Source: Balneolaceae bacterium (GTDB lineage Bacteria; Bacteroidota; Rhodothermia; Balneolales; Balneolaceae). Taken from it: 32,000 nt of DNA. The stretch's first letter is position 1. Every line of letters begins with the position of its first letter. The stretch covers positions 1,968,882 through 2,000,881 of the forward strand of contig OZ245886.1 in NCBI GenBank assembly GCA_965229525.1, read 5' to 3'. The notes below the pieces were generated by a model. That model worked only from the letters and a program-made list of their open reading frames with translations. It was not told the origin of the DNA and did no database searches. The translations under genes were made by a program, and so were the position numbers. Positions 6,638 through 29,733 of this stretch are shown in pieces.

Positions 6638-6648
6638 ACGCTTGATCT

Positions 6649-16797: not shown

Positions 16798-18639
16798 TTG
16801 CGCATGGATCATAAATTTTCACTTACAGGAATTGGTGCCGTTCAAAAAGAGCGAAAGTTCTTTGTTGACCCATTGGAAGAAATTCAGCAACCGGGAATCA
16901 AAATAATGAACCGGGTTTCATTCTTCCTATTACTTGTGTGCGTGTTATTTTTGATTCCCTTCTATTTCAACGACAGCGTTTCTTTAACCTGGTTTTTCCT
17001 TTCAGAAGCTTTAGCATTTGGGTTGATCCCGGTTCTTGCCCGACAAGGATATGTGAACACCGCAAAAATGCTACATATCATTTATATAGATATTGGCATT
17101 GTCATTCTTAGTTCTGTTTTTGGAAGTCAGGCTTTAATTCAGGCATTCTTTATACCCACAATGGGTTTGTCGATTCTTCTTTTTGATGGGAAAAACATCA
17201 GATTAAGAAATGTGTCAATCATTATATCTATTCTCTCATATTTCATTCTTGATTATATCATTTTCGACCAGGTGTATATTTCTGAAAATGGATTTTCAAT
17301 CATCAGGTGGAGTGTTCTTACGGCCGCATTTGTAACTACCTGGTTGATCTTCAATACATTCTCAGAATTTAAAGAGAGTGCCGAAAGTAAAACCAATGAG
17401 TTGCTTGACAAGGAAATTGAGCTAAACCGAGAATTAAGTATCAACCAAAAGAAATTAGAACGATACATTTCTGAATTGGAGGATACACGAATACAATTAG
17501 AACAAAGTACTAAGGCGAAATCGGAATTTTTGGCTACCATGAGTCACGAAATCAGAACCCCGATGAACGCCATTATGGGGATGACACATCTGCTACAGAA
17601 AGACGAACCAAGAGATGATCAACTTGAACCATTAAATATCCTCGATTTTTCTGGCAAGACACTTCTTACTTTAATTGATGATGTTCTCGATTTTTCGAAA
17701 ATAGAGGCGGGCCGACTGGAATTCGAAAAAACCGAATTTGACCTTGAACGACTGTTAGGTACCATCATAGAAACATTTAAAGTGATGGCTATGAACAAAA
17801 ACGTTGACTTGCAAAGTAACGTAGAGGAAGGTATTCACAACATTTTAATAGGAGATCCGGCACGATTAACCCAGATCATCAACAATCTACTTAGCAATGC
17901 TCTTAAATTTACAGAAACTGGTTATGTTAAATTAGGTGTAAAAAAATTGGGTGAAACTGAGAATGAAATTAACCTTCAATTTTCAGTAGAAGATACCGGT
18001 ATCGGAATACCAGAAGATCGTGTAGAAACAATTTTCGAAAGCTTTACCCAGGCTAGCGGGAGCACTAAGCGATTATACGGTGGTACAGGGTTAGGACTTA
18101 CAATCAGTAAGCAATTAACAGAACTACAAGGGGGGGCACTTCAATTAGAAAGTGAAGTTGGAAAGGGAACCACCTTTTTTGTTGATTTAACGTTTGAAAA
18201 AGGTGAATCGACGCAAGTTGAAACTAAAGCTGATATTTCGGCAGAATCCGAAGAAGAAAAACTTAGGGGCATTAGAGTTTTGCTTGCAGAAGACAATATT
18301 GTGAATCAAAAAGTGATGAATAGATTCTTAGAACGTTGGGAGATACATTTATCTATTGTTGAAAATGGAGAAGAAGCTGTTGAATTGGTCAAGAAGGAAG
18401 ATTTCGACCTGGTGTTGATGGATCTTCAAATGCCAATTATGGATGGGTATGAAGCGACAGCTGCTATTCGAAAATTGAAAGACGAAACTAAAAAAGATAT
18501 TCCAATTATTGCGTTGACCGCCGCAGCATTGAAGGAAGTAAAAGAAGAGGTGTATGCTTCGGGTATGAACGATTTCGTTACCAAACCATTCAACCCTGTC
18601 GAATTACGAAATAAAATGGCAGCTCACGTTAGCTCCTAG
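16798..18639 (+). CDS. Hybrid sensor histidine kinase / response regulator with a polytopic membrane N-terminus
   Basis: Five to six TM helices and a coiled coil. H-box SEFLATMSHEIRTPMNAIMGM, N-box LLSNALKFT, G-boxes DTGIGI and GGTGLGL. Receiver domain RVLLAEDN...DLVLMDLQMPIMDG...ALTA...TKPF. Start is uncertain: TTG 16798, ATG 16804 or ATG 16906. Confidence 0.9.
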   Translation: MRMDHKFSLTGIGAVQKERKFFVDPLEEIQQPGIKIMNRVSFFLLLVCVLFLIPFYFNDSVSLTWFFLSEALAFGLIPVLARQGYVNTAKMLHIIYIDIGIVILSSVFGSQALIQAFFIPTMGLSILLFDGKNIRLRNVSIIISILSYFILDYIIFDQVYISENGFSIIRWSVLTAAFVTTWLIFNTFSEFKESAESKTNELLDKEIELNRELSINQKKLERYISELEDTRIQLEQSTKAKSEFLATMSHEIRTPMNAIMGMTHLLQKDEPRDDQLEPLNILDFSGKTLLTLIDDVLDFSKIEAGRLEFEKTEFDLERLLGTIIETFKVMAMNKNVDLQSNVEEGIHNILIGDPARLTQIINNLLSNALKFTETGYVKLGVKKLGETENEINLQFSVEDTGIGIPEDRVETIFESFTQASGSTKRLYGGTGLGLTISKQLTELQGGALQLESEVGKGTTFFVDLTFEKGESTQVETKADISAESEEEKLRGIRVLLAEDNIVNQKVMNRFLERWEIHLSIVENGEEAVELVKKEDFDLVLMDLQMPIMDGYEATAAIRKLKDETKKDIPIIALTAAALKEVKEEVYASGMNDFVTKPFNPVELRNKMAAHVSS

Positions 18640-19049
18640 CTCTGCTTTTTTAAAAAATACGTGGTATATCCAGGTGGCAAGTCGGTTATTTCTCCGCAGA
18701 TTTGATACCCCAATTTTTGATAAAATACAGGTGCTTGAAAACTAGCCGTACTTAAATGATAGGAATAGATGTCTTTTTTGTGAGCTTCCTTTTCAATTGC
18801 ACTCATTAGTTTCAAGCCTATTCCTTTTCCCCTGTAATCAGGATGTACCCATAGTAAGTCAATATACAGCCAGTTCCAGGCAAAATTCCCATATATCCCA
18901 CCAATTAATTCTCCAGTCGGGTCCTCTACAGTGATGTAGCTAGAATCATAACTAAACTCTCCTGCTATATTTTGATTGAAAGCTCTTAGAGCTGCTCGAA
19001 GTTTATCAACTTCTAAATGATCCGGATTTTCATGAGTTGTAAATATCAT
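18636..19049 (-). CDS. GNAT-family N-acetyltransferase
   Basis: Motif A WVHPDYRGKGIGLKLMSAIEKEA. I place the start at ATG 19049-19047 (MIFTTHENPD), because the longer track ORF to 19148 is hydrophobic and overlaps the start of the next gene. Confidence 0.8.
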   Translation of the reverse strand: MIFTTHENPDHLEVDKLRAALRAFNQNIAGEFSYDSSYITVEDPTGELIGGIYGNFAWNWLYIDLLWVHPDYRGKGIGLKLMSAIEKEAHKKDIYSYHLSTASFQAPVFYQKLGYQICGEITDLPPGYTTYFLKKQS

Positions 19050-19134
19050 TCTAAAAACGTTGATTTGATTTGTCCCATTAGGAAAAGGTGATTTGTCATT
19101 ATGATGAACAACAATACTAATCAATGAAAGAACT

Positions 19135-19476
19135 ATGAAAAAATACATGTTAATATTAATGGATAATACAGACAGTTATTCCGAAATGACTCAACAGGAT
19201 TATCAAAATGAGATTGAACTCCATGGAAAGTGGATCCAGGAACTTGGCGACCGTTATGATTCTGGTGAAGCTTTAGAAGAAGACACTAAAATTATTAAGG
19301 GGAAAGAGCTGGTTGTAACGGATGGTCCTTTTATAGAGTCTAAGGAGTTAGTAGGTGGTTTTTACATACTTCGAGCACATAGTTTGGAAGAAGCCACAGA
19401 ACTTGCAAAAGGATGTCCAACGTTACGACTTGGAGGAAGGGTTGAAGTTCGGCCGGTAATGCATTTAGAAATGTAA
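19135..19476 (+). CDS. YciI-like / DGPF-domain protein (paralogue 1)
   Basis: MKKYMLIL..., VTDGPFIESKELVGGFYIL and GGRVEVRPVM. The DGPF motif and ~113-aa size are typical of the family. Confidence 0.85.
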   Translation: MKKYMLILMDNTDSYSEMTQQDYQNEIELHGKWIQELGDRYDSGEALEEDTKIIKGKELVVTDGPFIESKELVGGFYILRAHSLEEATELAKGCPTLRLGGRVEVRPVMHLEM

Positions 19477-19507
19477 ACTAAATAACGTCTATACTAACAA
19501 AGAAACT

Positions 19508-19849
19508 ATGAAGAAATACATGCTAATTTTATTTGAGTCTGGTGAAAGTTATGCTACCATGAGCCCAGAAGATTACCAGAAAGAAATAGAAGCACACAGT
19601 ATTTGGATCCAGAAGTTAGGTGATCACTATGATTCTGGGGAACCATTAGAACGAGGAGCAACCTCTGTTAGGGGTGTTAATAAACTTGTTACCGATGGTC
19701 CATACATAGAATCGAAGGAATTAGTGAGTGGATTCTACATCCTCAACGCAAATAGTCTGGAGCAAGCAACTGAGCTATCAAAAGGTTGTCCAATCCTTCG
19801 ATTGGGTGGATCATTGGAAGTTCGTCCAATTATGCATATATCCATGTAG
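19508..19849 (+). CDS. YciI-like / DGPF-domain protein (paralogue 2)
   Basis: 73 of 113 residues are identical to paralogue 1 in my hand alignment. VTDGPYIESKELVSGFYIL. The TAG stop is immediately followed by the ATG of the sigma gene. Confidence 0.85.
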   Translation: MKKYMLILFESGESYATMSPEDYQKEIEAHSIWIQKLGDHYDSGEPLERGATSVRGVNKLVTDGPYIESKELVSGFYILNANSLEQATELSKGCPILRLGGSLEVRPIMHISM

Positions 19850-21115
19850 ATGACCTCTTCAGCAAAATTAATGGATCATCTTTTTCGCCAACAATCGGGA
19901 AAGATGAATTCCATTCTCATTAATAGTTACGGCTTCGAATATTCCGAATTAATTGATGATGTAATTCAGGAGACTTTCCTAATTGCACTAAAACAGTGGG
20001 GAATGAAAGGGGTGCCGGATAACCCGGAAGGGTGGTTGATGCAGGTATCAAAAAACAAATTCCTGAATGAAATTAATCGCCTTAAAAGACATTGTAAATT
20101 AAACGTAAAATCTATCGAGCATTCTGAATTGGATGGGTTCCCAGAAACCTTGAGCGATAACCGATTCAAACAGGAACAACTAAGAACATTGTTTTCTTGT
20201 TGCACGCCTCAAATATCAGCTAAAGCTCAAATCATGCTCACTTTAAAAATAGTTTCTGGATTTGGGGATCGTGAAATTGCTAAAGCACTATTAATGAAAG
20301 AACAAGCAGTTAGGAAAGCCATCTATCGGGCAAGAAATACTATTAAAGAAATAGGTGAATCTGCACTTGTTGTGTCCCGATCTGATTATAAAGACAGGCA
20401 AGAGATTGTGTTGAAAATACTTTATTTGATGTTTAATGAAGGATATCATTCATCTTCTGGGGACAAACTACTCGATGAGGACATTACTTTCGAAGCGATA
20501 CGATTGACAAGTTGGTTACTTGAAATCGAATATTTAAATCACAGTACAATCCATGCTGTACTAGCTTTGATGTTCTTCAATTTCTCAAGATTTGATGCTC
20601 GATTGAACAAAAATGGAGAGATTATGGATATCGAGCAACAAGATCGAAGTACGTGGAGTAAAGAACTCATCCAAAAAGGTATGTACCATCAAAAGAAATC
20701 AAGAGAAACAGAAGCCTTAACAAATTACCATATAGAAAGTGGAATAGCAGCGGTTCATTGCTTATCACAAAGCTACGATGATACAAATTGGGCACAGATT
20801 GCTAATTATTATGAACGATTAATGACTTTTGATTCATCTTCACAAGTACAGATTAATTTCGCAATTGCCCTTTCCGAAAATGGTGAATCATTACAAGCTC
20901 TCAACATATTAAAAGGTATTGATCAAAAGGGATCAGACAATAAAAGTCTATTATTTGGTGCGATGGCAAGGGTGCATCGAAATTTAAGGCAGATTGAATT
21001 GGCAACATCATACTACAAAGTAGCACTAGATATGACGGAAAATGACAATGAGAGAAAATTCTATGAGGCTAAAATTGCAAATCTGCTTCTAAATACAGAC
21101 CGTCTAAATAATTAA
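19850..21115 (+). CDS. ECF-type sigma-70 family factor with a long C-terminal TPR-like extension (ECF42-like)
   Basis: Region 2: DDVIQETFLIALKQWGMKGVPDNPEGWLMQVSKNKFLNEINRLKR. Region 4: GFGDREIAKALLMKEQAVRKAIYRARNTI. A ~220-aa helical-repeat extension follows: YHIESGIAAVHCLSQSYDDTNWAQIANYYERL...INFAIAL. The DGPF neighbours match the known ECF42 context. Confidence 0.85.
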   Translation: MTSSAKLMDHLFRQQSGKMNSILINSYGFEYSELIDDVIQETFLIALKQWGMKGVPDNPEGWLMQVSKNKFLNEINRLKRHCKLNVKSIEHSELDGFPETLSDNRFKQEQLRTLFSCCTPQISAKAQIMLTLKIVSGFGDREIAKALLMKEQAVRKAIYRARNTIKEIGESALVVSRSDYKDRQEIVLKILYLMFNEGYHSSSGDKLLDEDITFEAIRLTSWLLEIEYLNHSTIHAVLALMFFNFSRFDARLNKNGEIMDIEQQDRSTWSKELIQKGMYHQKKSRETEALTNYHIESGIAAVHCLSQSYDDTNWAQIANYYERLMTFDSSSQVQINFAIALSENGESLQALNILKGIDQKGSDNKSLLFGAMARVHRNLRQIELATSYYKVALDMTENDNERKFYEAKIANLLLNTDRLNN

Positions 21116-21329: not shown

Positions 21330-23174
21330 ATGGTTGGGAAAACACATAAATGGCTATTAGTACTGGCACTTGCCTTTATCACCAAAGGTTTATTTGCTCA
21401 AACATTACCGGGACAAGTTGTATCACCTGATGTTCAGGAAGAAGCTGCAAAATACGAACAGTATTATGAGGTAGTACTAAATAACGCACTTTCTGATTAT
21501 TATCGGAAAGGTACATTCATTGTTGATGCAAAAGTAACACTCGAGAGAGTACTAGTACCAAGAGGCTATGAAGTTGTAGAAGGTGATGAGCCAATAAGAA
21601 TAGAAAATTTGCCTGGACTTCCTTTTGTTCCACCCAATTTACAGCGTGAGTCGGAAGGAACTACGGATAGTTTAAAAGCTTCAGGCTTTGATGCTCAATT
21701 TAGGCTCACCCAGCTTAACATTACCGTATTGGTAGATACGTCTTACAGTGATGAAGATGTTGACTTCGTTGAAGAAGCTACCATACTAATAGCAAATGCA
21801 GATCCATTTAGGGGAGATATTGTTGCGGTAGATAAAAAAGTGTTTCCAAGAAGTGCCAGAGCAATAGAGCAGGATGTTATGGAGGCAAGACAATCGCCCG
21901 AACCAGAGCCTGTTGAAGAACAAGTTGAACGAATGGGTGCACTTGATGATGTAGCTTCATCGGAGCCTGAACCAAATATGTTTCTCGGAATTGATTGGAA
22001 TAATCCTCAACATTTACTGTATGTAGTTGGGATACTAGCAGCACTATTCTTAATAACTTTACTCTATGCACTGCTAAAACGACCGGATCAAAAAGAAAGT
22101 AGTGCTCAATTACCGTATCCGGCATTCGATGGTGTGAATCCTATGCCAGCTGTTGATCATAAAACGGATGAACCAAAAGGACCAGATGCAAAAACGCTTG
22201 CACAATTTGAAGAAGATAAAACATTCGTAACGAATAACTGCATCAGTCACCCGGATGCCATTGCAGATTTAATTGGACAATGGATTGCGAGCGACGACGA
22301 ACAAGGTATAATTCGATCTGCAAAGTCGTTAGCAGGTGTGGATGAAAAACTAATAAATGTATTAGAACCACATATGAAAGTAGAAACTTTTGATGCGGTT
22401 AAATTTGCAATCAACAATACAGAACCCTCTACTCTTGATGAGAAAATTGAAGAAGTTAAAGCGTTCCGAAAAAGTATTCAGCAGGTTAATACCAAAAATG
22501 GAGCTTCCGATTCTGGCTCCAATCTATTCGATTTTGTATATCAATTAACCGATGTACAACTCCAGCATTTGATTAAAGAAGAATCTGATGAATTAGTTGC
22601 AATTCTTCTCGCACAGATTGCTGGCGAAAGAGCGGGGGTAATTCTTCAAAAACTCGATGACCAAAAAAGAATATCGATTTTGTTGAAGATGGGTAAAATC
22701 AACAATATTCCAATTTCGGTTTATAAGAAAGTTGCCGCCCACTTTTCGAATAAAGCGCTATCCGTTTCTGATATGAAATATGTGGCAGCGGATGGAATTG
22801 ATTCAATCCTTGCGACCATTGAGACCTTACCTCTAAGCGAACAAGATGATTATGTGCGTTCCATCGCCGAACAAGATCTGAATCTTGCAAAACGTATCAA
22901 GAAGTTCTTTATCGGGTTTGATGATCTTCCCAAAGTTAAAGATGAATTATTACAGGGTGCATTAGAAGAAATTCAGACTGATATTATCATTTTGGCTTTA
23001 AAAACAGCACCAGCAGCAGTGCGAGAAAAAGTGTTGAAGGTTCGTCCAAAACGGGAGCAACAGCTTATTCTATCTGAAGTTGATAACCCCGCTGAGGTTG
23101 CAAAAGGGGCGGTCGAGGATGCTCAAAAAACACTGTTATATGCCGTTAGGCGAAAAATGAAAACTGAGGCGTAG
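21330..23174 (+). CDS. Bitopic inner-membrane protein: periplasmic ~200-aa domain, one TM helix and a cytoplasmic full-length FliG-like (N/M/C) region
   Basis: Signal peptide or anchor MVGKTHKWLLVLALAFITKGLFAQ. Periplasmic part with beta-rich segments TFIVDAKVTLERVLVP and RLTQLNITVLVDTSYSDEDVDFVEEATILIANADPFRGDIVAVDKKVFP. P/E-rich linker. TM helix LLYVVGILAALFLITLLYALL (aa ~228-249). FliG_M-like EESDELVAILLAQIAGERAGVILQKLDDQKRISILLKMGKINNIPISV. FliG_C-like AKRIKKFFIGFDDLPKVKDELLQGALEEIQTDIIILALKTAP..VREKVLKVRPKREQQLILSEVD...VEDAQKTLLYAVRR. Confidence 0.7.
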   Translation: MVGKTHKWLLVLALAFITKGLFAQTLPGQVVSPDVQEEAAKYEQYYEVVLNNALSDYYRKGTFIVDAKVTLERVLVPRGYEVVEGDEPIRIENLPGLPFVPPNLQRESEGTTDSLKASGFDAQFRLTQLNITVLVDTSYSDEDVDFVEEATILIANADPFRGDIVAVDKKVFPRSARAIEQDVMEARQSPEPEPVEEQVERMGALDDVASSEPEPNMFLGIDWNNPQHLLYVVGILAALFLITLLYALLKRPDQKESSAQLPYPAFDGVNPMPAVDHKTDEPKGPDAKTLAQFEEDKTFVTNNCISHPDAIADLIGQWIASDDEQGIIRSAKSLAGVDEKLINVLEPHMKVETFDAVKFAINNTEPSTLDEKIEEVKAFRKSIQQVNTKNGASDSGSNLFDFVYQLTDVQLQHLIKEESDELVAILLAQIAGERAGVILQKLDDQKRISILLKMGKINNIPISVYKKVAAHFSNKALSVSDMKYVAADGIDSILATIETLPLSEQDDYVRSIAEQDLNLAKRIKKFFIGFDDLPKVKDELLQGALEEIQTDIIILALKTAPAAVREKVLKVRPKREQQLILSEVDNPAEVAKGAVEDAQKTLLYAVRRKMKTEA

Positions 23175-23177
23175 ATC

Positions 23178-24257
23178 ATGAAAAAGGTTTTCATTTTATG
23201 CGCTAGCCTACTTTTATGTATAAGTGGGCATACGTTTGCGCAAGATCATGAGAGTGGTGTTCCATATCAAATGGGGCAGATTTTTGAGCAAATGGTAGAT
23301 CAGATAAATGATGTGCCGGTAAATATTCGCAGAGTGGCAGTATATAAATTGAATTATAACGCCATGCGATTTACGGTTCAAGAAGTGGAGTTTATTAGAG
23401 GAGAGCTTGAAGCTGCTTTTAGAGAATTTGCCGGATTAACTGTTTTATCACCACCTGAGTTAGAACCCAATGATAAAATGAAGATCATTGGAAACGATAG
23501 TACCTTACAAATTCTCAATATTCAGGGACGATCTCTGGCTGATGTTTCTCCGGAGCTGTTAACTGAAATTGCTTCGAATTATGGGGTACAGGGGTTACTA
23601 GAAGTAAGCATGCAAAAGAGGTCACCAGATGGATTAATTCTTTCATTAAGAATGATAAGTCCACGGTCTCGTGAAATTGTGTGGACTAAAAGTTTTATCT
23701 CAAATCCATTCAGAGTGGAATTAGAAGTCGACAAAGGATTTACTTCGGTACTAAAGTTTGGAGCGGGTACTATTGAAGCAGAGTCTATTACTCGGGCCGA
23801 TACAAGTTTTGCAACCCCAGATACAGCGATAGGTAAACCAGTCGTAAATTATTCTGTATCATTTACCTATCGGCAGCCAATTAATCTAGATAACAGTGCT
23901 TATATAGGTTTTACAGGTGGAGTAAATATCCTTCGGTCTGCAAGTGATAGTAATTTCGACTTAACAATGATAGAACTTGGTGCTACCTATTATCAGGCTA
24001 TCACTGAGAAGAATGAAGACATAAATGACTATCGAGTTATGCTGTTTTTTAATGGTAACATTAAGTTTCCAATTAACAGTACAAAAGGTGAATTCTATTC
24101 ATTTAAACCTGGTGTCATGTTCAATATGAGTAAAAACTTAGGGTTGATACTTTATACTGATTTGATCATATCGGGTGAGACTTTAACATTAGAAAACAAC
24201 GACAAAATTACATACGGTAAGGTTGGATATGGATTACAGGCAGTTGTTAGATTCTAA
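23178..24257 (+). CDS. Outer-membrane protein: periplasmic alpha/beta domain (CsgG/LpoB/FlgO-like pattern) plus a C-terminal small beta-barrel
   Basis: Signal peptide ends in FAQ. N-domain RRVAVYKLNYN...FIRGELEAAF...GVQGLLEVSMQKRSPDGLILSLRMISPRSREIVWTKSF. The C-terminal ~175 aa have alternating amphipathic strands and end in GYGLQAVVRF (terminal Phe). Start is 3 nt after the upstream stop. Confidence 0.6.
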   Translation: MKKVFILCASLLLCISGHTFAQDHESGVPYQMGQIFEQMVDQINDVPVNIRRVAVYKLNYNAMRFTVQEVEFIRGELEAAFREFAGLTVLSPPELEPNDKMKIIGNDSTLQILNIQGRSLADVSPELLTEIASNYGVQGLLEVSMQKRSPDGLILSLRMISPRSREIVWTKSFISNPFRVELEVDKGFTSVLKFGAGTIEAESITRADTSFATPDTAIGKPVVNYSVSFTYRQPINLDNSAYIGFTGGVNILRSASDSNFDLTMIELGATYYQAITEKNEDINDYRVMLFFNGNIKFPINSTKGEFYSFKPGVMFNMSKNLGLILYTDLIISGETLTLENNDKITYGKVGYGLQAVVRF

Positions 24258-24852
24258 ATTATTATTAGCAATACTTTGTATTGGCTTATCGATTTCCGCT
24301 TGTAGATCAGCTGGGAATGTGCAAGAACAAATTGATGCAGCTATTGAGGCAAGTGAACCAACAGAAACCACCGGTAATGTTGAGACTAACTTACTCGAAG
24401 GAGAGGCTCGAAGTAATCCGATTATTGTATCCTATAGAAATGCTAGTTCCAATATTCAGATTTCATTAGACCCAGACCAGGATGAATTTTATTTGGATTT
24501 AAAAGGGATTACCCCAACTGAAAAAGATTCCATAATTGTTGTTGATACTACGATTATTAATAATCGAGCCACCGATATTCAGACGCTATTATCTAGCTAC
24601 AGAAAAGCGCAAGATTTATTCTATTTAGGAGAATATCGAGATGCCTTAGCCGAAGTGGATAAAACTCTGGAAATACAAGAAACGGCAGATGCATATGCTT
24701 TAAAAGGTACCATCTTTTTTATGATGGAAAATCCCTCTGCAGCTAGAGCAAATTGGGATATGGCTGTAAGAATGGATCCAAATATTCCGGTACCAAGTAT
24801 TCCGGAATTGGAAACACTAATTAATGAAATACGTGAGGATGGGGGCCAATGA
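24223..24852 (+). CDS. Lipoprotein with C-terminal TPR repeats
   Basis: Lipobox LSISAC. TPR-like AQDLFYLGEYRDALAEVDKTLEIQETADAYALKGTIFFMMENPSAARANWDMAVRMDPN. Start is ATG 24223, ATG 24229 or TTG 24244; all overlap the upstream gene. Confidence 0.7.
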   Translation: MDMDYRQLLDSKLLLAILCIGLSISACRSAGNVQEQIDAAIEASEPTETTGNVETNLLEGEARSNPIIVSYRNASSNIQISLDPDQDEFYLDLKGITPTEKDSIIVVDTTIINNRATDIQTLLSSYRKAQDLFYLGEYRDALAEVDKTLEIQETADAYALKGTIFFMMENPSAARANWDMAVRMDPNIPVPSIPELETLINEIREDGGQ

Positions 24853-25670
24853 AACTTTCACTAACTAATATACTAGGGGTATTTTTTAGTATAGGGATAC
24901 TAATTTTTGGGATTACAGAGACTTTGGAAGTAACCAGTGTATTGAGCAATATTCCGTTTCTTACCAATTATACCTTTTTAAATCTACCAAGCTTATTTAT
25001 CGTAATGGGCGGTATTCTAAACGCTGTGTTTATAACCTATCAACCAAGATATGTAGGGCAGGCTTTCTTCAATATTTTATTTTTATTTAGTCAGGCCAAA
25101 ACTTCAGCTAGAACTTTAGAAAACGATCTTGGCGAAATGTTGACCTGGAATGATCAGATTAAAAGTGATCGTGTTAAAGCTTTAGGCCGGTTAGAAGAAG
25201 AACATACTGGGCAAGTTGCCGGTTATCTATTTTCTTTAATGAGTACAAATTACTCAAACGAGGATATTAAAGAGTTTGGTTCTAATCATATAGAAGAACA
25301 TTATTTTCGTCAATTAGTTGTTGTTGATGTATTACGTGCAATGGGTGCCGCTGCGCCATCTTTTGGGATGTTCGGTACTTTATTTGGTCTGGTGGTAATG
25401 CTAGGTCAGCTTGAAAACCCATCTGGAATGGGGCCTGGACTTGCAGCCGCATTGATTACGACACTATATGGAATTTCTTTAGCACGATTCATTTTCTATC
25501 CAATCGCGGAAAAAATTAAAAACATAGCGCAATTAAATCGCTTTCGTGAATACTTTATCCTGGAAGGTGTATTATTGATTAATGAGCGCAAATCATCGTT
25601 TTATTTACAGGATCGACTTAGCACGTATCTACGAAGAGATTTCAAAAACAATCAAAAAGCTGAAAATTAG
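24849..25670 (+). CDS. MotA/PomA-type stator ion-channel subunit (MotA/TolQ/ExbB superfamily)
   Basis: ATGA overlap with the upstream gene. Topology is 2 TM, a ~100-aa cytoplasmic loop, then 2 TM. Signature prolines occur in APSFGMFGTLFGLVVMLGQL and ITTLYGISLARFIFYPIAEKI. Confidence 0.88.
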   Translation: MKLSLTNILGVFFSIGILIFGITETLEVTSVLSNIPFLTNYTFLNLPSLFIVMGGILNAVFITYQPRYVGQAFFNILFLFSQAKTSARTLENDLGEMLTWNDQIKSDRVKALGRLEEEHTGQVAGYLFSLMSTNYSNEDIKEFGSNHIEEHYFRQLVVVDVLRAMGAAAPSFGMFGTLFGLVVMLGQLENPSGMGPGLAAALITTLYGISLARFIFYPIAEKIKNIAQLNRFREYFILEGVLLINERKSSFYLQDRLSTYLRRDFKNNQKAEN

Positions 25671-25681
25671 CAGGTGACATT

Positions 25682-26359
25682 GTGATTGGTCGTAATTACA
25701 GTGGAAATTCAGATATCACAGAAGAACACGAAGAGGATCAGGAATGGTTGCTCACCTATAGCGACATGATCACGCTTCTATTAGCCTTCTTTGCAATGCT
25801 GATTGCCGTTTCATATGTAGATCTCAATTTATGGGAGCAAATGAAACAAGGTTTACGGTCAGAGATTTCGAAAGAAGAAAATGTTCGTACACCACTTGCT
25901 GAGGTAAAAGCAGATCTTGATCAATTATTAGCTGTTGAAAAAGCGCAAGGATTAGTAGATATCATTTTAGATAGAGAGGGTATTAAACTGTTTTTCTCAA
26001 GCAGCTCTTTTTATAATTCTGGTGAGGCTGATTTGTTACCTACAGGTCAGGGAATTATTGATAAGGTTACACAAGCCATGAATGCCCTAGATTTCTACAA
26101 TTTCAATGTCGATGTGGAGGGTCATACTGATAATGTGCCGATTAATACGCCAATTTATCCATCAAACTGGGAGTTATCAGTTGCAAGAGCGTCTGGGGTA
26201 GTAAAATATTTTATCGAAGATGGTATAGAAGCAGAACGATTAAAAGCCTCTGGATATGCTGATACGAAACCGGTAGTTCCACATGTTGATGAGCAGGGTC
26301 AAAATATCATAGAAAATCGTGCCCTTAATCGCCGTATTGTAGTTCGAATTTACTATTAA
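25682..26359 (+). CDS. MotB/PomB-type stator subunit with an OmpA-like peptidoglycan-binding domain
   Basis: N-terminal WLLTYSDMITLLLAFFAMLIAVS, with the channel Asp (D28) encoded at 25763-25765. C-terminal GHTDNVPI...SNWELSVARASGVVKYF...ASGYADTKPV...NRALNRRIVVRI. GTG start. Confidence 0.88.
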   Translation: MIGRNYSGNSDITEEHEEDQEWLLTYSDMITLLLAFFAMLIAVSYVDLNLWEQMKQGLRSEISKEENVRTPLAEVKADLDQLLAVEKAQGLVDIILDREGIKLFFSSSSFYNSGEADLLPTGQGIIDKVTQAMNALDFYNFNVDVEGHTDNVPINTPIYPSNWELSVARASGVVKYFIEDGIEAERLKASGYADTKPVVPHVDEQGQNIIENRALNRRIVVRIYY

Positions 26360-26412: not shown

Positions 26413-29349
26413 ATGCAAAAAAAGCTACTAGTTCTATTATTTTCTCTTCTCGCAAGTGTACATTCGCAAGCTCAGTTTAACACAGATTCTTTATCAAATA
26501 TAGTCAGGGGAAAAAGTCTACTTCAGCAAGACATACTTAGAGTACTTTCAGGAATTCACCCAGGGTTGCAAATTACATCAACAGGCGGTTTGACTGGTTC
26601 AGGGACTAACGCACTCATTAGAGGATATACAAGCCTGAATGCCACAAGCAATCCATTAATAATAGTAGATGGAATTAGGTTCGACGGTCAAAACAATCAA
26701 AATAGCAGCACCTTTACAGGTGGAGGTACGTTAACCACTCCAAATCGAAGTATTGATATTAACGCTTCCGAAATAATAGATATAAAAGTACTAAACTCTC
26801 TATCGGCAACAGTTCGTTATGGGGAGGAAGCCAGAAATGGTGTAATACTGATCACAACCAAAAGATCACAAAATAATCTAAGAGAAGACAAGCTGGAGAT
26901 TTCCTATCAACAGGGTTTCTATAATACGGTAATAAGTAGTCGTCCACACTATCAGAATAAATATGGAATGGGTTTCAATGGTATCAATTCTGGTACTTTT
27001 AGTTCATGGGGACCCGAATTTTTAGTAACGGATGAAGCTAGCTTTAATACAAATTTTGCAGGTTTTGATTCTGATGGAACCGTATTACTTAATCACCCAT
27101 TAACCGGACATGAATTTACAGCATTAGCATTTCCAGAATTTGCGACCGCAACCTACAGATACGAAGCAAAACCCAACGCCATTGACGAATTTTTTAAGAA
27201 TGGATTTGCATCAACAACTCAATTAGGGGCTAATTATCGAACTGGAAATTATTTTTTAAATGTAAATTATGCCGGAAGTTGGGAAGATGGTTTTACCCCA
27301 GAGAATTCATTACAACGGAATAATATTGGAGCAAATTTTAGCTATCCACTAATTGAAAATGTTCACGGAAGATCTTCCTTACAATTAGTCTATACTGATA
27401 TTAAATCGCCAGTTCTAAGTGCAGGTAGTGGTAGCGGCAGGGTTCAAAGCTCGGCCGGGCCTAGCGTTTTTTCTGATGTTTTTTATACACCAAGATCTAT
27501 AGGATTCGATTTCCCCTATCAAAATCCGGATAATGGCGGATCAGCTTATTACAGAGTCGGAAACGATATTCTAAATCCAAGATGGACAATTGACAATACA
27601 AAAAGCATGAATAGTAGTAACAGGATTTTAGGATACACCGAAGTGCTGTTTACTCCAACTGATCGATTTGAAATACTGTACAATTATTCATTCGAAAGCT
27701 ACGATGAAGATCAGGAATATAGATTGAACCCTTCGTTAGCTACCAATTATCCTTTTCCATCAGGGTTATATCAAACGATAGATGTAACCAGAATTTTCTA
27801 TGAGCAATTATTACTCTTTAAACTAAAGAAACTTGAATTTGGGCAACTAACTTTAAATGTAGATGCCGGTTTAAATTATATATCAGAGACTATTGAAGAG
27901 GAGGGTCTTGAAAGTATTGATATTCGCGATTTGGGAATTTTCAAGCACAGTAATTTTAGAACTCAGTTACCTATAAGTTCTTTTACTAGTGAGTTATTTG
28001 CTCGGGAATTCGATCGCAGATCGTTCGCGGTGTTTTCAATGGCTAACCTGGATTTCAAACATATTATTGGCGCAGAAATAGGCATTCGAGGGGTATCAAA
28101 TAAGTCGTTGCAACAGCAGGATTTAAGTGCATGGTATCCATCAATGCAGCTCGCTTACAGACCTATCAACCATTTTGATAAGCCAGTTGGTTTTTTGTCG
28201 GATGCTAAAATCGAGGTAGGATATTCCACATCAGGAAGATCCATTTTTACAGAGCAGGAGATTCTGGTTCAAGATCGTGCAAGTGTACGGGTTAATAACC
28301 AAATAAAGCCAGAGAGGTCTACTGAAAGGCAGTTGAGCTTAACACTGGGTTTTTTTGATAATAGAATCAAAATTCAATCGACATATTACAAGCAAACCCA
28401 TACGGACTTAATATCTAGAATTGCAGATAGTAGCGATCCTACTTTTTCATCCATATTAGACAACTTGATGGAAATTGAATCAGAAGGGCTGGAATTGTCC
28501 TTGTTTGCAATGCCAATTCGGAGAAAAGTTCAGTGGACGATATTCAGTAATTTTTCCAGTATAAACACAGAAGTAAAAGAATACACTGGTTCATTTAATG
28601 CCGTTCAATTAGGTAATAGTTTACCAAGTAGGGGAAATGCCGCATTGATCGACGAGCCGTTCATGGTGATGTATGGTATTCAGATATTGAAAGTTAACGA
28701 GGCCCTGAAAGAATCTAATCCTGATTTTGCCAATGTTGCCATCGGCACCCCGATTATTGATGATTTTGGAAATTATGTGCCAGGCCAGGTTGGAATCATA
28801 GGAAATCCAATCCCTAAATGGAATGCATCCATGATTCATCAGATTTCTTACCAAAATTTGGGGTTAAGTATTCAGCTCGATTATCAACATGGTGGTGATA
28901 TGTATAGCGCATGGATTGCATCGCTACTAGGAAGAGGAGTTGTAACCGAGACAACCAAAGATGATCGAAACGAAATGTTTATAGTCGAAGGTGTTGGATT
29001 TGATGGTGAGCCGAATGACGTAGAAATCAGTTCACAGCAATATTACTTCAATAATATATTGATTGGACCAGATCAGGCGCGTGTTTTTGATATGACTCAT
29101 TTTCGCATTTCTTATATCAGTTTAGATTACGACTTGCCCGGTAAATGGCTAGAAAATAGTAGAATTCAACAGGTAAATATTTCCATTTCGGTAGAAAATG
29201 CCTTTCTAACAATGCCGAATATTCCCGATGGGTTAGGATTTGATCCTAATGTAAATTCAAATGGAGCAGGGGTTAACAATCTAGGTTTTGAGTACTTAAC
29301 GGGGCCAGGTGCGCGAAGATTCGGGGGAGCTATACGTGTGAAATTTTAA
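26413..29349 (+). CDS. SusC/RagA-family TonB-linked OM transporter, orphan (no SusD partner, no N-terminal carboxypeptidase-regulatory-like domain)
   Basis: Signal peptide ends in SQAQ. Plug motifs NALIRGYTSLNATSNPLIIVDGIRFDG and IKVLNSLSATVRYGEEARNGVILITTKR. Long barrel ending in GGAIRVKF. It starts 53 nt after motB, with no hairpin between. Confidence 0.88.
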   Translation: MQKKLLVLLFSLLASVHSQAQFNTDSLSNIVRGKSLLQQDILRVLSGIHPGLQITSTGGLTGSGTNALIRGYTSLNATSNPLIIVDGIRFDGQNNQNSSTFTGGGTLTTPNRSIDINASEIIDIKVLNSLSATVRYGEEARNGVILITTKRSQNNLREDKLEISYQQGFYNTVISSRPHYQNKYGMGFNGINSGTFSSWGPEFLVTDEASFNTNFAGFDSDGTVLLNHPLTGHEFTALAFPEFATATYRYEAKPNAIDEFFKNGFASTTQLGANYRTGNYFLNVNYAGSWEDGFTPENSLQRNNIGANFSYPLIENVHGRSSLQLVYTDIKSPVLSAGSGSGRVQSSAGPSVFSDVFYTPRSIGFDFPYQNPDNGGSAYYRVGNDILNPRWTIDNTKSMNSSNRILGYTEVLFTPTDRFEILYNYSFESYDEDQEYRLNPSLATNYPFPSGLYQTIDVTRIFYEQLLLFKLKKLEFGQLTLNVDAGLNYISETIEEEGLESIDIRDLGIFKHSNFRTQLPISSFTSELFAREFDRRSFAVFSMANLDFKHIIGAEIGIRGVSNKSLQQQDLSAWYPSMQLAYRPINHFDKPVGFLSDAKIEVGYSTSGRSIFTEQEILVQDRASVRVNNQIKPERSTERQLSLTLGFFDNRIKIQSTYYKQTHTDLISRIADSSDPTFSSILDNLMEIESEGLELSLFAMPIRRKVQWTIFSNFSSINTEVKEYTGSFNAVQLGNSLPSRGNAALIDEPFMVMYGIQILKVNEALKESNPDFANVAIGTPIIDDFGNYVPGQVGIIGNPIPKWNASMIHQISYQNLGLSIQLDYQHGGDMYSAWIASLLGRGVVTETTKDDRNEMFIVEGVGFDGEPNDVEISSQQYYFNNILIGPDQARVFDMTHFRISYISLDYDLPGKWLENSRIQQVNISISVENAFLTMPNIPDGLGFDPNVNSNGAGVNNLGFEYLTGPGARRFGGAIRVKF

Positions 29350-29657: not shown

Positions 29658-29670
29658 TAGATGACCCCAA

Positions 29671-29709
29671 AAGCCTTACTGGAGAGTAAGGCTTTTCTTT
29701 TTTTATTTT
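29671..29709 (+). terminator. Strong rho-independent terminator
   Basis: Perfect 10-bp stem aaagccttac / gtaaggcttt (29671-29680 with 29687-29696), loop tggaga, then tcttttttttatttt. Confidence 0.85.
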
Positions 29710-29733
29710 GTGCCAGAAGTAGTAAATCTATCA

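What the first reader, a model, noticed from the sequence alone, without database searches (positions are those of the whole stretch)
21330..23174. FliF-FliG-fusion-like architecture: periplasmic ring-building-motif-like domain, one TM helix and a full FliG
The topology read from the sequence has five parts. A signal peptide or anchor covers aa 1-24, and a ~200-aa periplasmic region follows. A Pro/Glu-rich linker (QSPEPEPVEEQVE...SSEPEPN) leads to one TM helix (aa ~228-249, nt ~22011-22076). The cytoplasmic part covers aa ~250-614. The cytoplasmic part aligns with FliG as I remember it, for example from T. maritima. The N-domain-like helix is ISHPDAIADLIGQWI. The M-domain block EESDELVAILLAQIAGERAGVILQKLDDQKRISILLKMGKINNIPISV corresponds to EHPQtiAliLs.L....AaevL..Lpe.l...v..RiA.l..v.Pevl. 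The C-domain block AKRIKKFFIGFDDLPKVKDELLQGALEEIQTDIIILALKTAP..VREKVLKVRPKREQQLILSEVD....VEDAQKTLLYAVRR corresponds to ...MFVFEDi.kLDDRsIQ.vLREVD..dLAlALKGAs.elkekif.NMSkRAA.lLkeDlE...V.eAQq.Ii.iiRR. The torque-helix charges are only partly kept: K-R, then S-E-V-D where E. coli has R281 ... D288 D289. The periplasmic part has beta-alpha-beta stretches such as LNITVLVDTSYSDEDVDFVEEATILIANADPFRGDIVAVDKKVF. These resemble the ring-building motifs of FliF, SctJ and SpoIIIAG. The overall layout thus mimics a miniature MS-ring protein covalently fused to its C-ring partner. Engineered FliF-FliG fusions are known to be functional in Salmonella. A natural, stand-alone version in a non-flagellar operon would be new.
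Basis: partly seen in the sequence, partly recalled or inferred. Interest (0 to 1): 0.8.

Follow-up and report, generated by a model that had tools for sequence, protein, structure and literature searches.

The report
Flagellum-less FliF–FliG rotor with own stator
This gene fuses the ring-building part of the flagellar MS-ring protein FliF to a complete rotor protein FliG, and it sits in a conserved five-gene cassette with its own MotA/MotB stator in bacteria that appear to lack flagella, which suggests a flagellar-type rotary motor used for something other than swimming.

Summary
ORF 21330-23174 (+) encodes 614 aa with the layout signal peptide, periplasmic domain, acidic/Pro linker, one TM helix (aa 229-247) and cytoplasmic domain.

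The cytoplasmic part is a three-domain FliG. Pfam finds FliG_M and FliG_C, and hhalign against a canonical FliG gives 99.4 % probability over residues 7-308 of 322.

The periplasmic domain models confidently (pLDDT 83.6) as an alpha-beta-beta-alpha-beta fold with a long hairpin. Its 18 best PDB matches are all the FliF S-ring/RBM3/collar. hhalign to a canonical FliF RBM3 gives 95 % probability and shares the VVDxxY and RGD motifs.

The gene heads a cassette found in about 47 loci from Balneolaceae, a Bacteroidales MAG and Fibrobacterota MAGs. The order is fusion, outer-membrane beta-barrel protein, TPR lipoprotein, MotA, MotB. No other flagellar gene lies within 10 kb of any locus.

The rotor-stator charge residues are partly kept and change together. 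The FliM-binding EHPQR motif and RBM1/RBM2 are absent.

The most likely reading is a stand-alone ion-driven rotor-stator module without export gate, switch or filament. Ring formation, rotation and output remain inferred.

A different natural FliF-FliG fusion is already published for Chlamydiaceae, so natural fusions as such are not new. I found no description of this family or cassette.

The parts
21330..23174 (+). Gene for the FliF(RBM3)-TM-FliG fusion protein (614 aa), first gene of the cassette
   Evidence: ORF; full-length homologues; strong purifying selection against L001, with pN 0.08 and pS saturated at 0.74.
21330..21401 (+). Signal peptide or N-terminal anchor (aa 1-24; h-region aa 8-26, conserved A-Q at aa 23-24)
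   Evidence: Hydropathy scan; alignment A1. Cleavage was not tested.
21426..21854 (+). Periplasmic FliF RBM3/beta-collar-like domain (aa ~33-175), with the family motifs LPGLP (aa 94-98), VLVDTSY (aa 133-139) and RGD...FP (aa 161-173)
   Evidence: AF2 model with pLDDT 83.6 and core above 95. Foldseek top 18 hits are all FliF S-ring/RBM3. The profile search of PDB sequences reaches only FliF. hhalign to a canonical FliF gives 95 % probability. Conserved columns are listed.
21855..21980 (+). Glu/Pro-rich linker of variable length (aa 176-217)
   Evidence: Composition; low pLDDT; length variation in the alignment.
22014..22070 (+). Single transmembrane helix (aa 229-247), preceded by the Balneolaceae motif FLGIDWNNP and followed by K250 and R251
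   Evidence: Hydropathy 2.55; helix 226-249 in the model.
22302..23168 (+). Complete FliG (N, M and C domains; aa 325-613). R575 corresponds to E. coli R281 and E583 to D289. The EHPQR motif is replaced by EESDE.
   Evidence: Pfam; TIGR00207 alignment; phmmer against PDB FliG; Foldseek; hhalign at 99.4 %; column counts.
23178..24257 (+). 359-aa secreted protein with a conserved periplasmic N-domain and a C-terminal region ending in ...GLQAVVRF. Predicted to be an outer-membrane beta-barrel; the fold was not determined.
   Evidence: Signal peptide. Nearly invariant terminal Phe (9 of the 10 aligned sequences; the one without it is the L042 product, which is split into two ORFs) and a conserved N-domain across distant loci. 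Weak OMP_b-brl_2 hit, E 0.021. Same position in 42 loci. No relatives in PDB or NCBIfam.
24229..24852 (+). TPR lipoprotein (207 aa from ATG 24229; lipobox I-S-A-C). Its start overlaps the preceding gene by 29 nt.
   Evidence: TPR_1, TPR_2 and TPR_16 hits; sequence; conserved position in 44 loci.
24849..25670 (+). MotA/PomA-like stator A subunit (273 aa, 4 TM helices). K105 is at the PomA R88 / MotA R90 position and an acidic cluster lies at aa 116-118. Its start overlaps the TPR gene's stop (ATGA).
   Evidence: Pfam MotA_ExbB; NCBIfam MotP/PomA hits below cut-off; PomA is the best PDB match at 1.9e-21, with both channel prolines aligned; column counts.
25682..26359 (+). MotB/PomB-like stator B subunit (225 aa): plug, one TM helix with an invariant Asp (YSDM), and an OmpA-type peptidoglycan-binding domain
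   Evidence: Pfam MotB_plug and OmpA; PDB MotB at 5.7e-26; Asp kept in every locus.
26413..29349 (+). SusC/RagA-like TonB-dependent outer-membrane transporter. Possibly co-transcribed here, but not part of the conserved core.
   Evidence: TIGR04056 at 260 bits, below its cut-off. Present after MotB only in L001-L005, L007 and L023. No terminator between MotB and this gene; a strong terminator lies at 29669-29696.

Best explanation
The ORF encodes a single-pass inner-membrane protein. Its periplasmic domain is homologous to the S-ring/beta-collar building block (RBM3) of the flagellar MS-ring protein FliF. One TM helix joins that domain covalently to a complete FliG (N, M and C domains).

It is the first gene of a conserved five-gene cassette. 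The other four genes encode a predicted outer-membrane beta-barrel protein, a TPR lipoprotein, and a MotA/MotB stator with an intact ion-binding Asp and a peptidoglycan anchor.

The most likely mechanism has four steps.
1. The fusion protein oligomerises through its RBM3-like domain into a membrane ring with one FliG per subunit (inferred).
2. Ion flow through peptidoglycan-anchored MotA5B2 units turns this ring through electrostatic contacts between the MotA cytoplasmic loop and the FliG_C torque helix (inferred from conserved and co-varying charges).
3. There is no FliM/FliN switch, no RBM1/RBM2 seat for an export gate, and no rod, hook or filament. The motor would therefore be unidirectional and would not drive a flagellum (domain absences shown; absence from the whole genome rests on the literature).
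4. The work is delivered in the periplasm, probably to or through the co-encoded outer-membrane and TPR proteins (speculative).

The physiological output is unknown.
For: Identity of the parts
- FliG.
- FliF RBM3/collar: model pLDDT 83.6; top 18 PDB hits are FliF S-ring, probability 1.0; only FliF is reached by the profile, sharing RGD..F; hhalign 94-95 %, FliF residues 238-421.
- PDB titles show that RBM3 is what builds 33/34-mer S-rings, and one entry (8ftf) is a 33-mer of RBM3.
- An engineered Vibrio FliF-FliG fusion forms S-rings (PDB 8z4d; PMC11481574).

The stator looks functional
- The best PDB matches are PomA and MotB.
- The MotB TM Asp is invariant in all loci.
- MotA has four TM helices and keeps both channel prolines.

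Coupling between rotor and stator
- The FliG R281 equivalent is R in 57 and K in 5 of 62 diverse members.
- The MotA R90 equivalent is K or R in 42 of the 45 family sequences aligned (44 of which have a residue at that position).
- In L041, L043 and L048 the D289 equivalent is Gly, and in the same three loci the MotA R90 equivalent is Gln.

Cassette conservation
- All 39 Balneolaceae-type genome loci with enough flank keep the cassette.
- So do members at 23-33 % identity, including a Fibrobacteres MAG.
- Genes overlap or abut.
- All five genes have pN of 0.05-0.16 while synonymous sites are saturated.

Non-flagellar setting
- tblastn with 15 canonical flagellar proteins finds no rod, hook, export, FliE, FliF, FliL or flagellin gene in 958 kb around 46 loci.
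- Gracilimonas tropica DSM 19535 carries the cassette (L026). It is reported as non-motile (PMC5167729) and as lacking flagellar-assembly genes (PMC9909488).
- The EHPQR FliM-binding motif is not kept.
Against: - No oligomer was modelled or observed, so ring formation is inferred from homology alone. The collar insertion is also shorter than in FliF (136 aligned columns against 184 FliF residues).
- RBM1 and RBM2 are absent, so ring assembly would have to rest on RBM3 alone.
- Of the five classical torque-helix charges, only the R281 equivalent is family-wide. The D289 equivalent is acidic in fewer than half of the diverse members, with a second acidic site two residues later in 42 of 62. The K264, D288 and R297 equivalents are not conserved.
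- The charge co-variation may reflect a single evolutionary event.
- The MotA E98 equivalent depends on a two-residue alignment shift.
- Scores are far below the equivalog cut-offs for FliG, MotA and MotB.
- Absence of flagellar genes at genome level was not tested here. Balneola vulgaris is described as flagellated.
- Nothing links the outer-membrane and TPR proteins physically to the ring. One Bacteroidales locus lacks the beta-barrel gene at that position.
Confidence: 0.6

Rival explanations
1. The fusion protein is a non-rotating docking platform. It is a static membrane scaffold, oligomeric or not, whose FliG_C domain recruits and unplugs MotAB. The stator then works as a regulated ion channel or envelope-stress/mechanosensing device. 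Alternatively, MotA rotation drags single fusion proteins laterally, as in the Agl-Glt or GldLM gliding machines, rather than turning a ring.
For: - Ring formation is untested.
- Several torque-helix charges are not conserved.
- The cassette composition recalls Tol-Pal-type envelope systems more than a flagellum: an inner-membrane motor, an inner-membrane adaptor with a periplasmic domain, a TPR protein, an outer-membrane protein and a peptidoglycan binder.
- An ECF sigma factor and a hybrid kinase lie upstream in this window.
Against: - The periplasmic domain is homologous specifically to the part of FliF whose known role is to build the 33/34-mer S-ring.
- All three FliG domains are kept, including the M and N domains that make ring contacts in the C-ring.
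- The upstream regulators are not syntenic beyond the nearer relatives.
Confidence: 0.2
2. The cassette is an accessory part of a canonical flagellum encoded elsewhere in the genome. It could be a second rotor-like ring, a stator reservoir or clutch, or the regular stator operon with a FliG paralogue.
For: - Balneola vulgaris is described as flagellated, and the family Balneolaceae as 'non-motile or motile by flagella' (PMC5167729).
- Some Aliifodinibius/Fodinibius genomes carry incomplete flagellar gene sets (PMC9909488).
- MotA and MotB resemble flagellar PomA/MotP and MotB/MotS best.
Against: - The cassette is present in G. tropica DSM 19535, which is reported as non-motile and as lacking flagellar-assembly genes.
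- It is also present in Bacteroidales and Fibrobacterales MAGs. These groups are not known to be flagellated; that point is from my own knowledge.
- No flagellar gene lies within 10 kb of any of 46 loci.
- The FliM-binding EHPQR motif is lost.
- A ring without RBM1/RBM2 cannot seat an export gate.
Confidence: 0.1
3. The cassette is a decaying relic of a lost flagellum with no present function.
For: - PMC9909488 interprets the incomplete flagellar pathways in Balneolaceae as remnants of an ancestral motility system.
- In two MAGs a cassette gene is split into two ORFs: L042 (the beta-barrel protein) and L045 (MotA).
Against: - All five genes are intact.
- They are syntenic across lineages that share only 22-33 % identity.
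- They are under strong purifying selection, with pN of 0.05-0.16 and pS saturated.
- Functional residues are invariant, namely the MotB Asp and FliG R575.
- The fusion architecture itself is a conserved innovation with its own motifs, LPGLP and RGD-FP.
Confidence: 0.03

Closest known systems
Flagellar rotor-stator core: FliF MS-ring (RBM3 S-ring/collar), FliG and MotA5B2/PomA5B2
   Same: - The periplasmic domain is homologous to FliF RBM3/collar in fold and at profile level.
- The cytoplasmic part is a three-domain FliG.
- The co-encoded stator has a plug, a TM Asp, a peptidoglycan-binding domain and four-TM MotA.
- The R281 and R90 equivalents are conserved.
   Different: - FliF and FliG form one polypeptide.
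- RBM1 and RBM2 are absent, and the first TM helix is replaced by a signal-peptide-like segment.
- The EHPQR FliM-binding motif is lost.
- No FliM, FliN, export apparatus, rod, hook or filament genes lie nearby.
- Scores are below the NCBIfam equivalog cut-offs.
- The partner genes are an outer-membrane beta-barrel protein and a TPR lipoprotein.
Engineered FliF-FliG fusions (Salmonella deletion-fusion mutants; Vibrio alginolyticus FliFG, PDB 8z4d/8z4g, PMC11481574, PMC10941966)
   Same: FliF and FliG are covalently linked in 1:1 stoichiometry. The engineered fusions assemble S-rings, and the 8z4d/8z4g S-ring is among the best structural matches to the periplasmic domain.
   Different: The engineered proteins are full-length FliF (RBM1-3, two TM helices) joined to FliG in the laboratory, within complete flagellar systems. 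The present protein is natural, contains RBM3 only, and is found in non-flagellar gene neighbourhoods.
Chlamydiaceae natural FliF-FliG fusion (Bergeron 2016, PeerJ, PMC4768692)
   Same: It is a natural fusion of a shortened FliF to FliG sequence in bacteria not thought to be flagellated.
   Different: - As described, the chlamydial protein is ~330 aa and keeps an RBM2-like domain plus a second RBM.
- It lacks the SpoIIIAG-like RBM3 and is fused only to a FliG M-domain-like region.
- It is discussed as a partner of the injectisome, and no MotAB is mentioned.
- The present family has the opposite complement: RBM3 only, a full N-M-C FliG, and a dedicated MotAB.
Other 5:2 ion-driven motor systems that energise the envelope (TolQRA-TolB-Pal-CpoB, ExbBD-TonB, GldLM, AglRQS-Glt, ZorAB)
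   Same: An inner-membrane MotA/ExbB-family motor is encoded together with a membrane-anchored partner that reaches into the periplasm, a TPR protein (compare CpoB), an OmpA-type peptidoglycan binder and an outer-membrane protein.
   Different: - The coupling partner here is a FliG domain on the cytoplasmic face, which is flagellar-type coupling. It is not a TolA/TonB/GldM-type periplasmic rod.
- MotA matches flagellar PomA/MotP far better than TolQ or ExbB: E 1e-32 against 2e-3.
- There are no ZorA, ZorC or ZorD matches.
SpoIIIAG and SctJ/PrgK ring-building-motif proteins
   Same: They share the RBM (alpha-beta-beta-alpha-beta) fold class. PrgK (2y9j_Y) is a weak Foldseek hit at E 1.9e-3.
   Different: FliF RBM3 matches 3-4 orders of magnitude better. 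SpoIIIAG does not appear among the 50 hits listed. No sequence-level signal to either protein was found.

Membership tests
FliG (flagellar rotor / motor switch protein) | FliG_C and FliG_M domains above Pfam gathering scores | tested here: met
   FliG_C scores 66.7 bits against a cut-off of 23.3, and FliG_M scores 32 against 25. The FliG_C fold gives TM 0.84 and 2.0 A to 1qc7.
FliG (flagellar rotor / motor switch protein) | N-terminal (FliF-binding) domain present, giving a three-domain architecture | tested here: met
   The Pfam FliG_N model scores just below its cut-off and maps onto the M region (24.9 against 25). However, hhalign covers canonical FliG residues 7-308 of 322, and phmmer covers Aquifex FliG residues 21-319.
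FliG (flagellar rotor / motor switch protein) | Equivalog-level similarity (TIGR00207) | tested here: not met
   79.2 bits against a cut-off of 226.7.
FliG (flagellar rotor / motor switch protein) | Charged torque-helix residues (E. coli K264, R281, D288, D289, R297) | tested here: inconclusive
   The R281 equivalent is R or K in 62 of 62 members. The D289 equivalent is E or D in 27 of 62, with an acidic residue two positions later in 42 of 62. The K264, D288 and R297 equivalents are not conserved.
FliG (flagellar rotor / motor switch protein) | EHPQR motif of the M domain (FliM binding) and association with FliM/FliN | tested here: not met
   EHPQ is replaced by EESD, and only the first Glu is conserved in the family. 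No other flagellar gene lies in the neighbourhoods. FliM and FliN were not among the 15 tblastn queries. Genome-wide absence was not testable.
FliG (flagellar rotor / motor switch protein) | Soluble cytoplasmic protein bound non-covalently to the FliF C-terminus | tested here: not met
   The FliG part is covalently attached to a TM helix and a periplasmic domain.
FliF (MS-ring protein) | RBM3/beta-collar (S-ring) domain | tested here: met
   The top 18 Foldseek hits are FliF S-ring/RBM3. hhalign gives 95 % probability on FliF residues 238-421 and shares the VVDxxY and RGD motifs.
FliF (MS-ring protein) | Match to the Pfam YscJ_FliF / YscJ_FliF_C models | tested here: not met
   No Pfam family matches the periplasmic region even at E <= 10.
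FliF (MS-ring protein) | RBM1 and RBM2 (the SctJ-homology region that seats the export gate) | tested here: not met
   Only ~150 structured periplasmic residues are present, and all align to RBM3/collar. Nothing aligns to FliF residues 1-237.
FliF (MS-ring protein) | Two TM helices flanking the periplasmic region | tested here: inconclusive
   There is one strong TM helix (aa 229-247). The N-terminal segment looks like a cleavable signal peptide (hydropathy 1.71, followed by A-Q). Cleavage was not tested.
FliF (MS-ring protein) | Self-assembly into a ~33/34-mer ring | not testable with these tools
Flagellar stator MotA/MotB (PomA/PomB) | MotA_ExbB domain with 4 TM helices; MotB plug, TM helix with the essential Asp, and OmpA-type domain | tested here: met
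   Pfam; hydropathy; Asp invariant in all loci; PDB best hits are PomA at 1.9e-21 and MotB at 5.7e-26.
Flagellar stator MotA/MotB (PomA/PomB) | Equivalog-level similarity to MotA/PomA/MotP and MotB/MotS/MotD | tested here: not met
   The best scores are 113 bits against a cut-off of 394 (MotP) and 157 against 283 (MotD).
Flagellar stator MotA/MotB (PomA/PomB) | Charged residues of the cytoplasmic loop that contact FliG (E. coli R90 and E98) | tested here: inconclusive
   The R90 equivalent is K or R in 42 of the 45 family sequences aligned (44 of which have a residue at that position). The E98 equivalent is non-acidic in the direct alignment, but an LE(E/D)E cluster lies 3-5 residues later (E or D in 41 of 45 at window residue 118).
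Chlamydiaceae-type FliF-FliG fusion | ~330 aa; RBM2-like domain, no RBM3; only a FliG M-like region | tested here: not met
   This protein is 614 aa with RBM3 only and a full FliG, in contrast to the description in PMC4768692.
Zorya anti-phage system (ZorAB plus ZorC/D/E) | ZorA with a long tail, plus Zor accessory proteins | tested here: not met
   In PADLOC only the MotB-like protein hits ZorB models, which is generic MotB homology. There are no ZorA, ZorC or ZorD hits.

The most novel reading that the evidence does not exclude
The cassette encodes a previously undescribed kind of bacterial rotary machine in the FCB group (Balneolaceae, Bacteroidales, Fibrobacterota). It would be a filament-less, export-less, switch-less ring of FliF(RBM3)-FliG fusion subunits, turned by its own MotAB stators and coupled through the periplasm to an outer-membrane beta-barrel protein and a TPR lipoprotein. 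On this reading, flagellar-type rotation is used for an envelope function other than swimming. In the strongest form of the reading, this minimal rotor-stator core is not a reduced flagellum. It would be a surviving relative of the pre-flagellar rotary module that existed before the type III export apparatus was recruited.
Probability: 0.4. Interest if true: 0.95.

Novelty: new variant of a known kind. Interest (0 to 1): 0.85.

Why it matters
FliG and the FliF S-ring are known only as parts of the flagellum. [quoted passage not shown]

This family gives that question a concrete and testable object. It is a conserved, selected, self-contained rotor-plus-stator cassette in cultured non-motile strains, namely Gracilimonas tropica DSM 19535 and Balneola sp. 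EhC07.

If it rotates, it would be the simplest natural FliG/MotAB motor. It has one rotor polypeptide, no switch and no export gate. That would make it attractive for structural and single-molecule work on torque generation, and for reconstructing how the flagellar motor was assembled in evolution.

It would also add a new class to the 5:2-motor-driven envelope machines (Ton, Tol, Gld, Agl, Zor). In practical terms, annotation pipelines call these genes 'flagellar motor switch protein FliG', 'MotA' and 'MotB', which can create false 'incomplete flagellar pathway' calls in FCB genomes.

Tried and rejected
- Pfam and NCBIfam gave nothing for the periplasmic domain or for the 359-aa protein. The weak OMP_b-brl_2 (E 0.021) and LpoB (E 0.22, one member) hits are not significant.
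- A profile of the 359-aa family reached no solved structure. hhalign found no relation between it and the FliF-like domain or a canonical FliF. My impression of a CsgG/FlgO/LpoB-like N-domain therefore remains an untested memory.
- The TPR protein has no specific PDB relative; only generic TPR hits above E 0.2 were found. A MotX/PflA-like role is speculation.
- Zorya or another defence system is rejected.
- The SusC-like gene was rejected as a core member, which also rejects an alternative TonB-like energiser for a SusC transporter. The gene follows MotB only in the closest relatives.
- Two 331-aa 'short FliG' hits (P0222, P0234) were examined as possible canonical FliG relatives. They turned out to be contig-end fragments of the fusion.
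- The second homologous-protein run, with the mixed alignment, returned almost only Balneolaceae. A third run with distant members only was needed to obtain taxon names.
- Taxonomy of the distant loci through neighbouring housekeeping proteins gave no names.
- The sigma-70 promoter scan was uninformative, with counts at shuffle level.
- Nine literature searches found no description of this family or cassette. The library covers open-access papers and bioRxiv only.

Full report
**Observation**

The window holds an ATG-started ORF at 21330-23174 (+) of 614 codons. A hydropathy scan finds a signal-peptide-like h-region at aa 8-26, followed by a conserved Ala-Gln. It finds one strong transmembrane segment at aa 229-247, followed by K250 and R251. 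The N-terminal ~200 residues are therefore periplasmic and the C-terminal 365 residues cytoplasmic. The stretch aa 176-217 is Glu/Pro-rich, variable in length among homologues, and of low model confidence.

**The cytoplasmic half is a complete FliG**

- Pfam finds FliG_M (aa 410-481) and FliG_C (aa 511-611) above their gathering scores.
- TIGR00207 aligns aa 396-608 to model positions 108-319. It scores only 79 bits against a cut-off of 227, so this is not an ordinary FliG orthologue.
- phmmer against solved structures returns only FliG entries. Salmonella FliG residues 51-318 and Aquifex FliG residues 21-319 are covered.
- A first AlphaFold model of the whole protein was mediocre (pLDDT 61). 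Even so, its 13 best PDB matches are FliG structures, and the T. maritima FliG C-domain superposes at TM 0.84 and 2.0 A.
- hhalign of a 62-member family alignment against a canonical FliG gives 99.4 % probability and E 3.9e-21. That FliG comes from a genuine flgC-fliE-fliF-fliG-fliH-fliI operon (L049). The alignment pairs aa 325-613 with FliG residues 7-308 of 322, which covers the N, M and C domains.

| E. coli FliG residue | This protein |
|---|---|
| K264 | K558 |
| R281 | R575 |
| D288 | S582 |
| D289 | E583 |
| R297 | A591 |

The EHPQ motif of the M domain, which binds FliM, reads EESD here.

**The periplasmic half is homologous to the FliF S-ring block**

No Pfam model matches this region, even at E <= 10. 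I cut aa 25-228 out of 53 diverse family members and modelled it. The mean pLDDT is 83.6 and the core is above 95. The topology is alpha-beta-beta-alpha-beta, with two ~20-residue strands joined by a loop that carries the invariant LPGLP motif.

- In Foldseek against the PDB, the 18 best matches are all the FliF MS-ring S-ring/RBM3/collar from Vibrio and Salmonella (E 3e-7 to 2e-5, probability 1.0, TM to target about 0.5). OsmC/Ohr proteins and PrgK follow three orders of magnitude weaker.
- The same FliF hits had already appeared at ranks 14-32 with the poor full-length model.
- At sequence level, a profile of the domain reaches only two PDB sequences at E <= 10. Both are FliF, aligned over the alpha2-beta3 segment with a shared RGD...F motif.
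- hhalign against the canonical FliF of L049 gives 95 % probability and E 3.9e-8. It pairs aa 46-182 with FliF residues 238-421 of 531 and matches 'VLVDTSY' to 'VVVDGTY' and 'LDxxRGDxVxIxxxxFP' to 'YDESRGDRIEVVNIPF'.
- Nothing aligns to FliF residues 1-237, so RBM1 and RBM2 are absent.

The protein is therefore FliF (RBM3/collar plus the second TM helix) fused to full-length FliG.

**Context**

The next four genes on the same strand abut or overlap.

- 23178-24257 encodes a 359-aa secreted protein. It has a conserved N-domain, and its C-terminal part ends in ...GLQAVVRF. This is a typical outer-membrane beta-barrel terminus. The final Phe is nearly invariant (9 of the 10 aligned sequences; the one without it is the L042 product, which is split into two ORFs).
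- 24229-24852 encodes a TPR lipoprotein with the lipobox ISAC.
- 24849-25670 encodes a four-TM MotA. Its best matches are MotP/PomA in NCBIfam and PomA in the PDB (E 1.9e-21), and both channel prolines are aligned.
- 25682-26359 encodes a MotB with a plug, a TM helix carrying the Asp, and an OmpA-type domain. The best PDB match is MotB at E 5.7e-26.

A SusC-like transporter follows without a terminator. It is present only in the closest relatives, so it is not part of the core.

The five-gene order is kept in every one of the 39 Balneolaceae-type genome loci with enough flank. These include Gracilimonas tropica DSM 19535 and Balneola sp. EhC07. The order is also kept in members that share only 23-33 % identity (L041, L042, L043, L045, L048). 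A Bacteroidales MAG lacks the beta-barrel gene at that position.

**Breadth and selection**

An exhaustive profile-free search of 1.8 billion cluster representatives finds 112 clusters at E <= 1e-30. Nearly all are ~600 aa and align end to end. Named members come from Balneolaceae, a Bacteroidales MAG, and Fibrobacterales/Fibrobacteres MAGs, one of which is annotated 'FliG-like protein'. Against the closest genome (L001), all five genes have non-synonymous differences of 0.05-0.16 per site while synonymous sites are saturated at ~0.72-0.75. The cassette is maintained by selection and is not decaying.

**Rotor-stator coupling**

- Across 62 diverse members, the R281 equivalent is R (57) or K (5). 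The D289 equivalent is acidic in 27, and a second site two residues later is acidic in 42.
- In the MotA family, the PomA R88 / MotA R90 position is K or R in 42 of the 45 family sequences aligned (44 of which have a residue at that position). An LE(E/D)E cluster sits next to the E98 position.
- In three distant loci (L041, L043, L048) the D289 equivalent has become Gly. In the same three loci the MotA R90 equivalent is Gln. This is the pattern expected for an interacting charge pair, although it may be a single evolutionary event.
- The MotB channel Asp is invariant.

**Non-flagellar setting**

- tblastn with 15 canonical flagellar proteins from L049 against 958 kb around 46 loci hits nothing except the fusion gene itself.
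- The rest of this window encodes housekeeping and transport functions.
- G. tropica is listed as non-motile (PMC5167729). A KEGG-based comparison reports it as lacking flagellar-assembly genes, together with the Balneola genomes (PMC9909488).
- As a caveat, Balneola vulgaris was described as flagellated.

**Mechanism**

*Shown*
- The domain identities.
- The topology, from hydropathy and the positive-inside rule.
- Cassette conservation.
- Intact stator residues.
- Loss of the FliM-binding motif and of RBM1/RBM2.

*Inferred*
- The RBM3-like domain assembles a ring, as RBM3 does in the 33/34-mer S-ring structures that are its best matches.
- Each subunit presents one FliG. This is the 1:1 stoichiometry of engineered FliF-FliG fusions, which assemble S-rings (PDB 8z4d; PMC11481574).
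- Peptidoglycan-anchored MotA5B2 units turn the ring.
- Without FliM/FliN the motor would not switch direction.
- Without RBM1/RBM2 and an export gate it cannot build a rod or filament.

*Speculative*
- The collar or S-ring passes the work to the outer-membrane beta-barrel protein and the TPR lipoprotein. Alternatively, these two proteins scaffold the stator, as the TPR proteins PflA/PflB or MotX do in other motors (from my own knowledge).

**Rivals**

The rivals are a non-rotating docking or sensing platform or a laterally driven adaptor (0.2), an accessory of a canonical flagellum encoded elsewhere (0.1), and a relic (0.03).

**Comparison with what is known**

The closest system is the flagellar rotor-stator core, but membership as FliG, FliF or MotAB orthologues fails the equivalog tests and several defining features (see the membership table). 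Natural FliF-FliG fusion is not unprecedented. Bergeron (2016, PMC4768692) described a ~330-aa chlamydial protein with an RBM2-like domain, no RBM3 and only a FliG M-like region. That is the opposite complement, and no MotAB is mentioned. Zorya is excluded. MotA matches TolQ and ExbB about 30 orders of magnitude worse than MotP/PomA.

Nine full-text searches found no description of this family or cassette. A 2025 preprint explicitly leaves open what rotor proteins do in filament-less genomes.

**Verdict**

This is a natural FliF(RBM3)-FliG fusion that heads a conserved, selected rotor-plus-stator cassette in FCB-group bacteria, outside any flagellar gene context. I rate it a new variant of a known kind, with high interest (0.85). 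The open points are ring formation, actual rotation, the genome-wide absence of flagella and, above all, the output of the machine.

Noticed in passing
window 26413-29349: A SusC/RagA-like TonB-dependent transporter (978 aa, Plug domain at aa 39-144) starts 53 nt after MotB. There is no terminator between the two genes and no SusD-like partner after it. TIGR04056 aligns from model position 112, so the protein seems to lack the usual N-terminal extension. It is kept after the cassette only in the closest relatives (L001-L005, L007, L023).
   Followed up: partly
window 29669-29696: A strong intrinsic-terminator-like hairpin (12-bp stem followed by a T-run) lies 320 nt after the SusC-like gene and just before the ORF at 29710-30255. 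It probably marks the end of the transcription unit that begins at 21330.
   Followed up: no
window 16798-21115: The upstream block holds a hybrid histidine kinase with a weak MASE7 match (below Pfam's cut-off), two tandem YCII-domain genes (19135-19849), and an ECF-type sigma factor carrying DUF6596 (19850-21115). It is syntenic with the cassette only in the nearer Balneolaceae, so a regulatory link is possible but not general.
   Followed up: partly
window 1410-7857: A cluster of a CarboxypepD_reg-type TonB-dependent receptor, a PorV/FadL-like outer-membrane protein, an NHL-repeat protein and a type I phosphodiesterase/nucleotide pyrophosphatase. It looks like an uptake locus for an organophosphate or nucleotide substrate.
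   Followed up: no
window 24229-24257 and 24849-24852: The TPR gene's ATG lies 29 nt inside the end of the 359-aa gene. The MotA start overlaps the TPR stop (ATGA). Both overlaps suggest translational coupling within the cassette. The TTG at 24223 listed by the ORF finder is probably not the real start.
   Followed up: partly
L042 11817-12903; L045 10000-10783: In two distant MAG loci a cassette gene is split into two ORFs: the beta-barrel protein in L042 and MotA in L045. This could be a sequencing frameshift or local decay.
   Followed up: no
L044 8001-11883: The Bacteroidales MAG locus has the fusion, TPR, MotA and MotB genes but no 359-aa-type gene between them. Two unannotated genes (279 and 996 aa) lie directly upstream, and the larger one gives a weak TPR-region BLAST hit.
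   Followed up: no
L045 200-3127: Next to the cassette in L045 lies a separate ExbB-like system on the opposite strand: two MotA_ExbB-domain genes (501 and 204 aa) and a DUF3450 gene. One locus can thus hold two different 5:2-motor systems.
   Followed up: no
literature (PMC9909488) versus loci L026, L031-L035: KEGG-based reports of 'incomplete flagellar assembly / motor switch pathways' in non-motile Balneolaceae may partly be this cassette, annotated as fliG, motA and motB. The same paper lists Balneola as lacking flagellar genes, although B. vulgaris was described as flagellated. This inconsistency is worth resolving.
   Followed up: no
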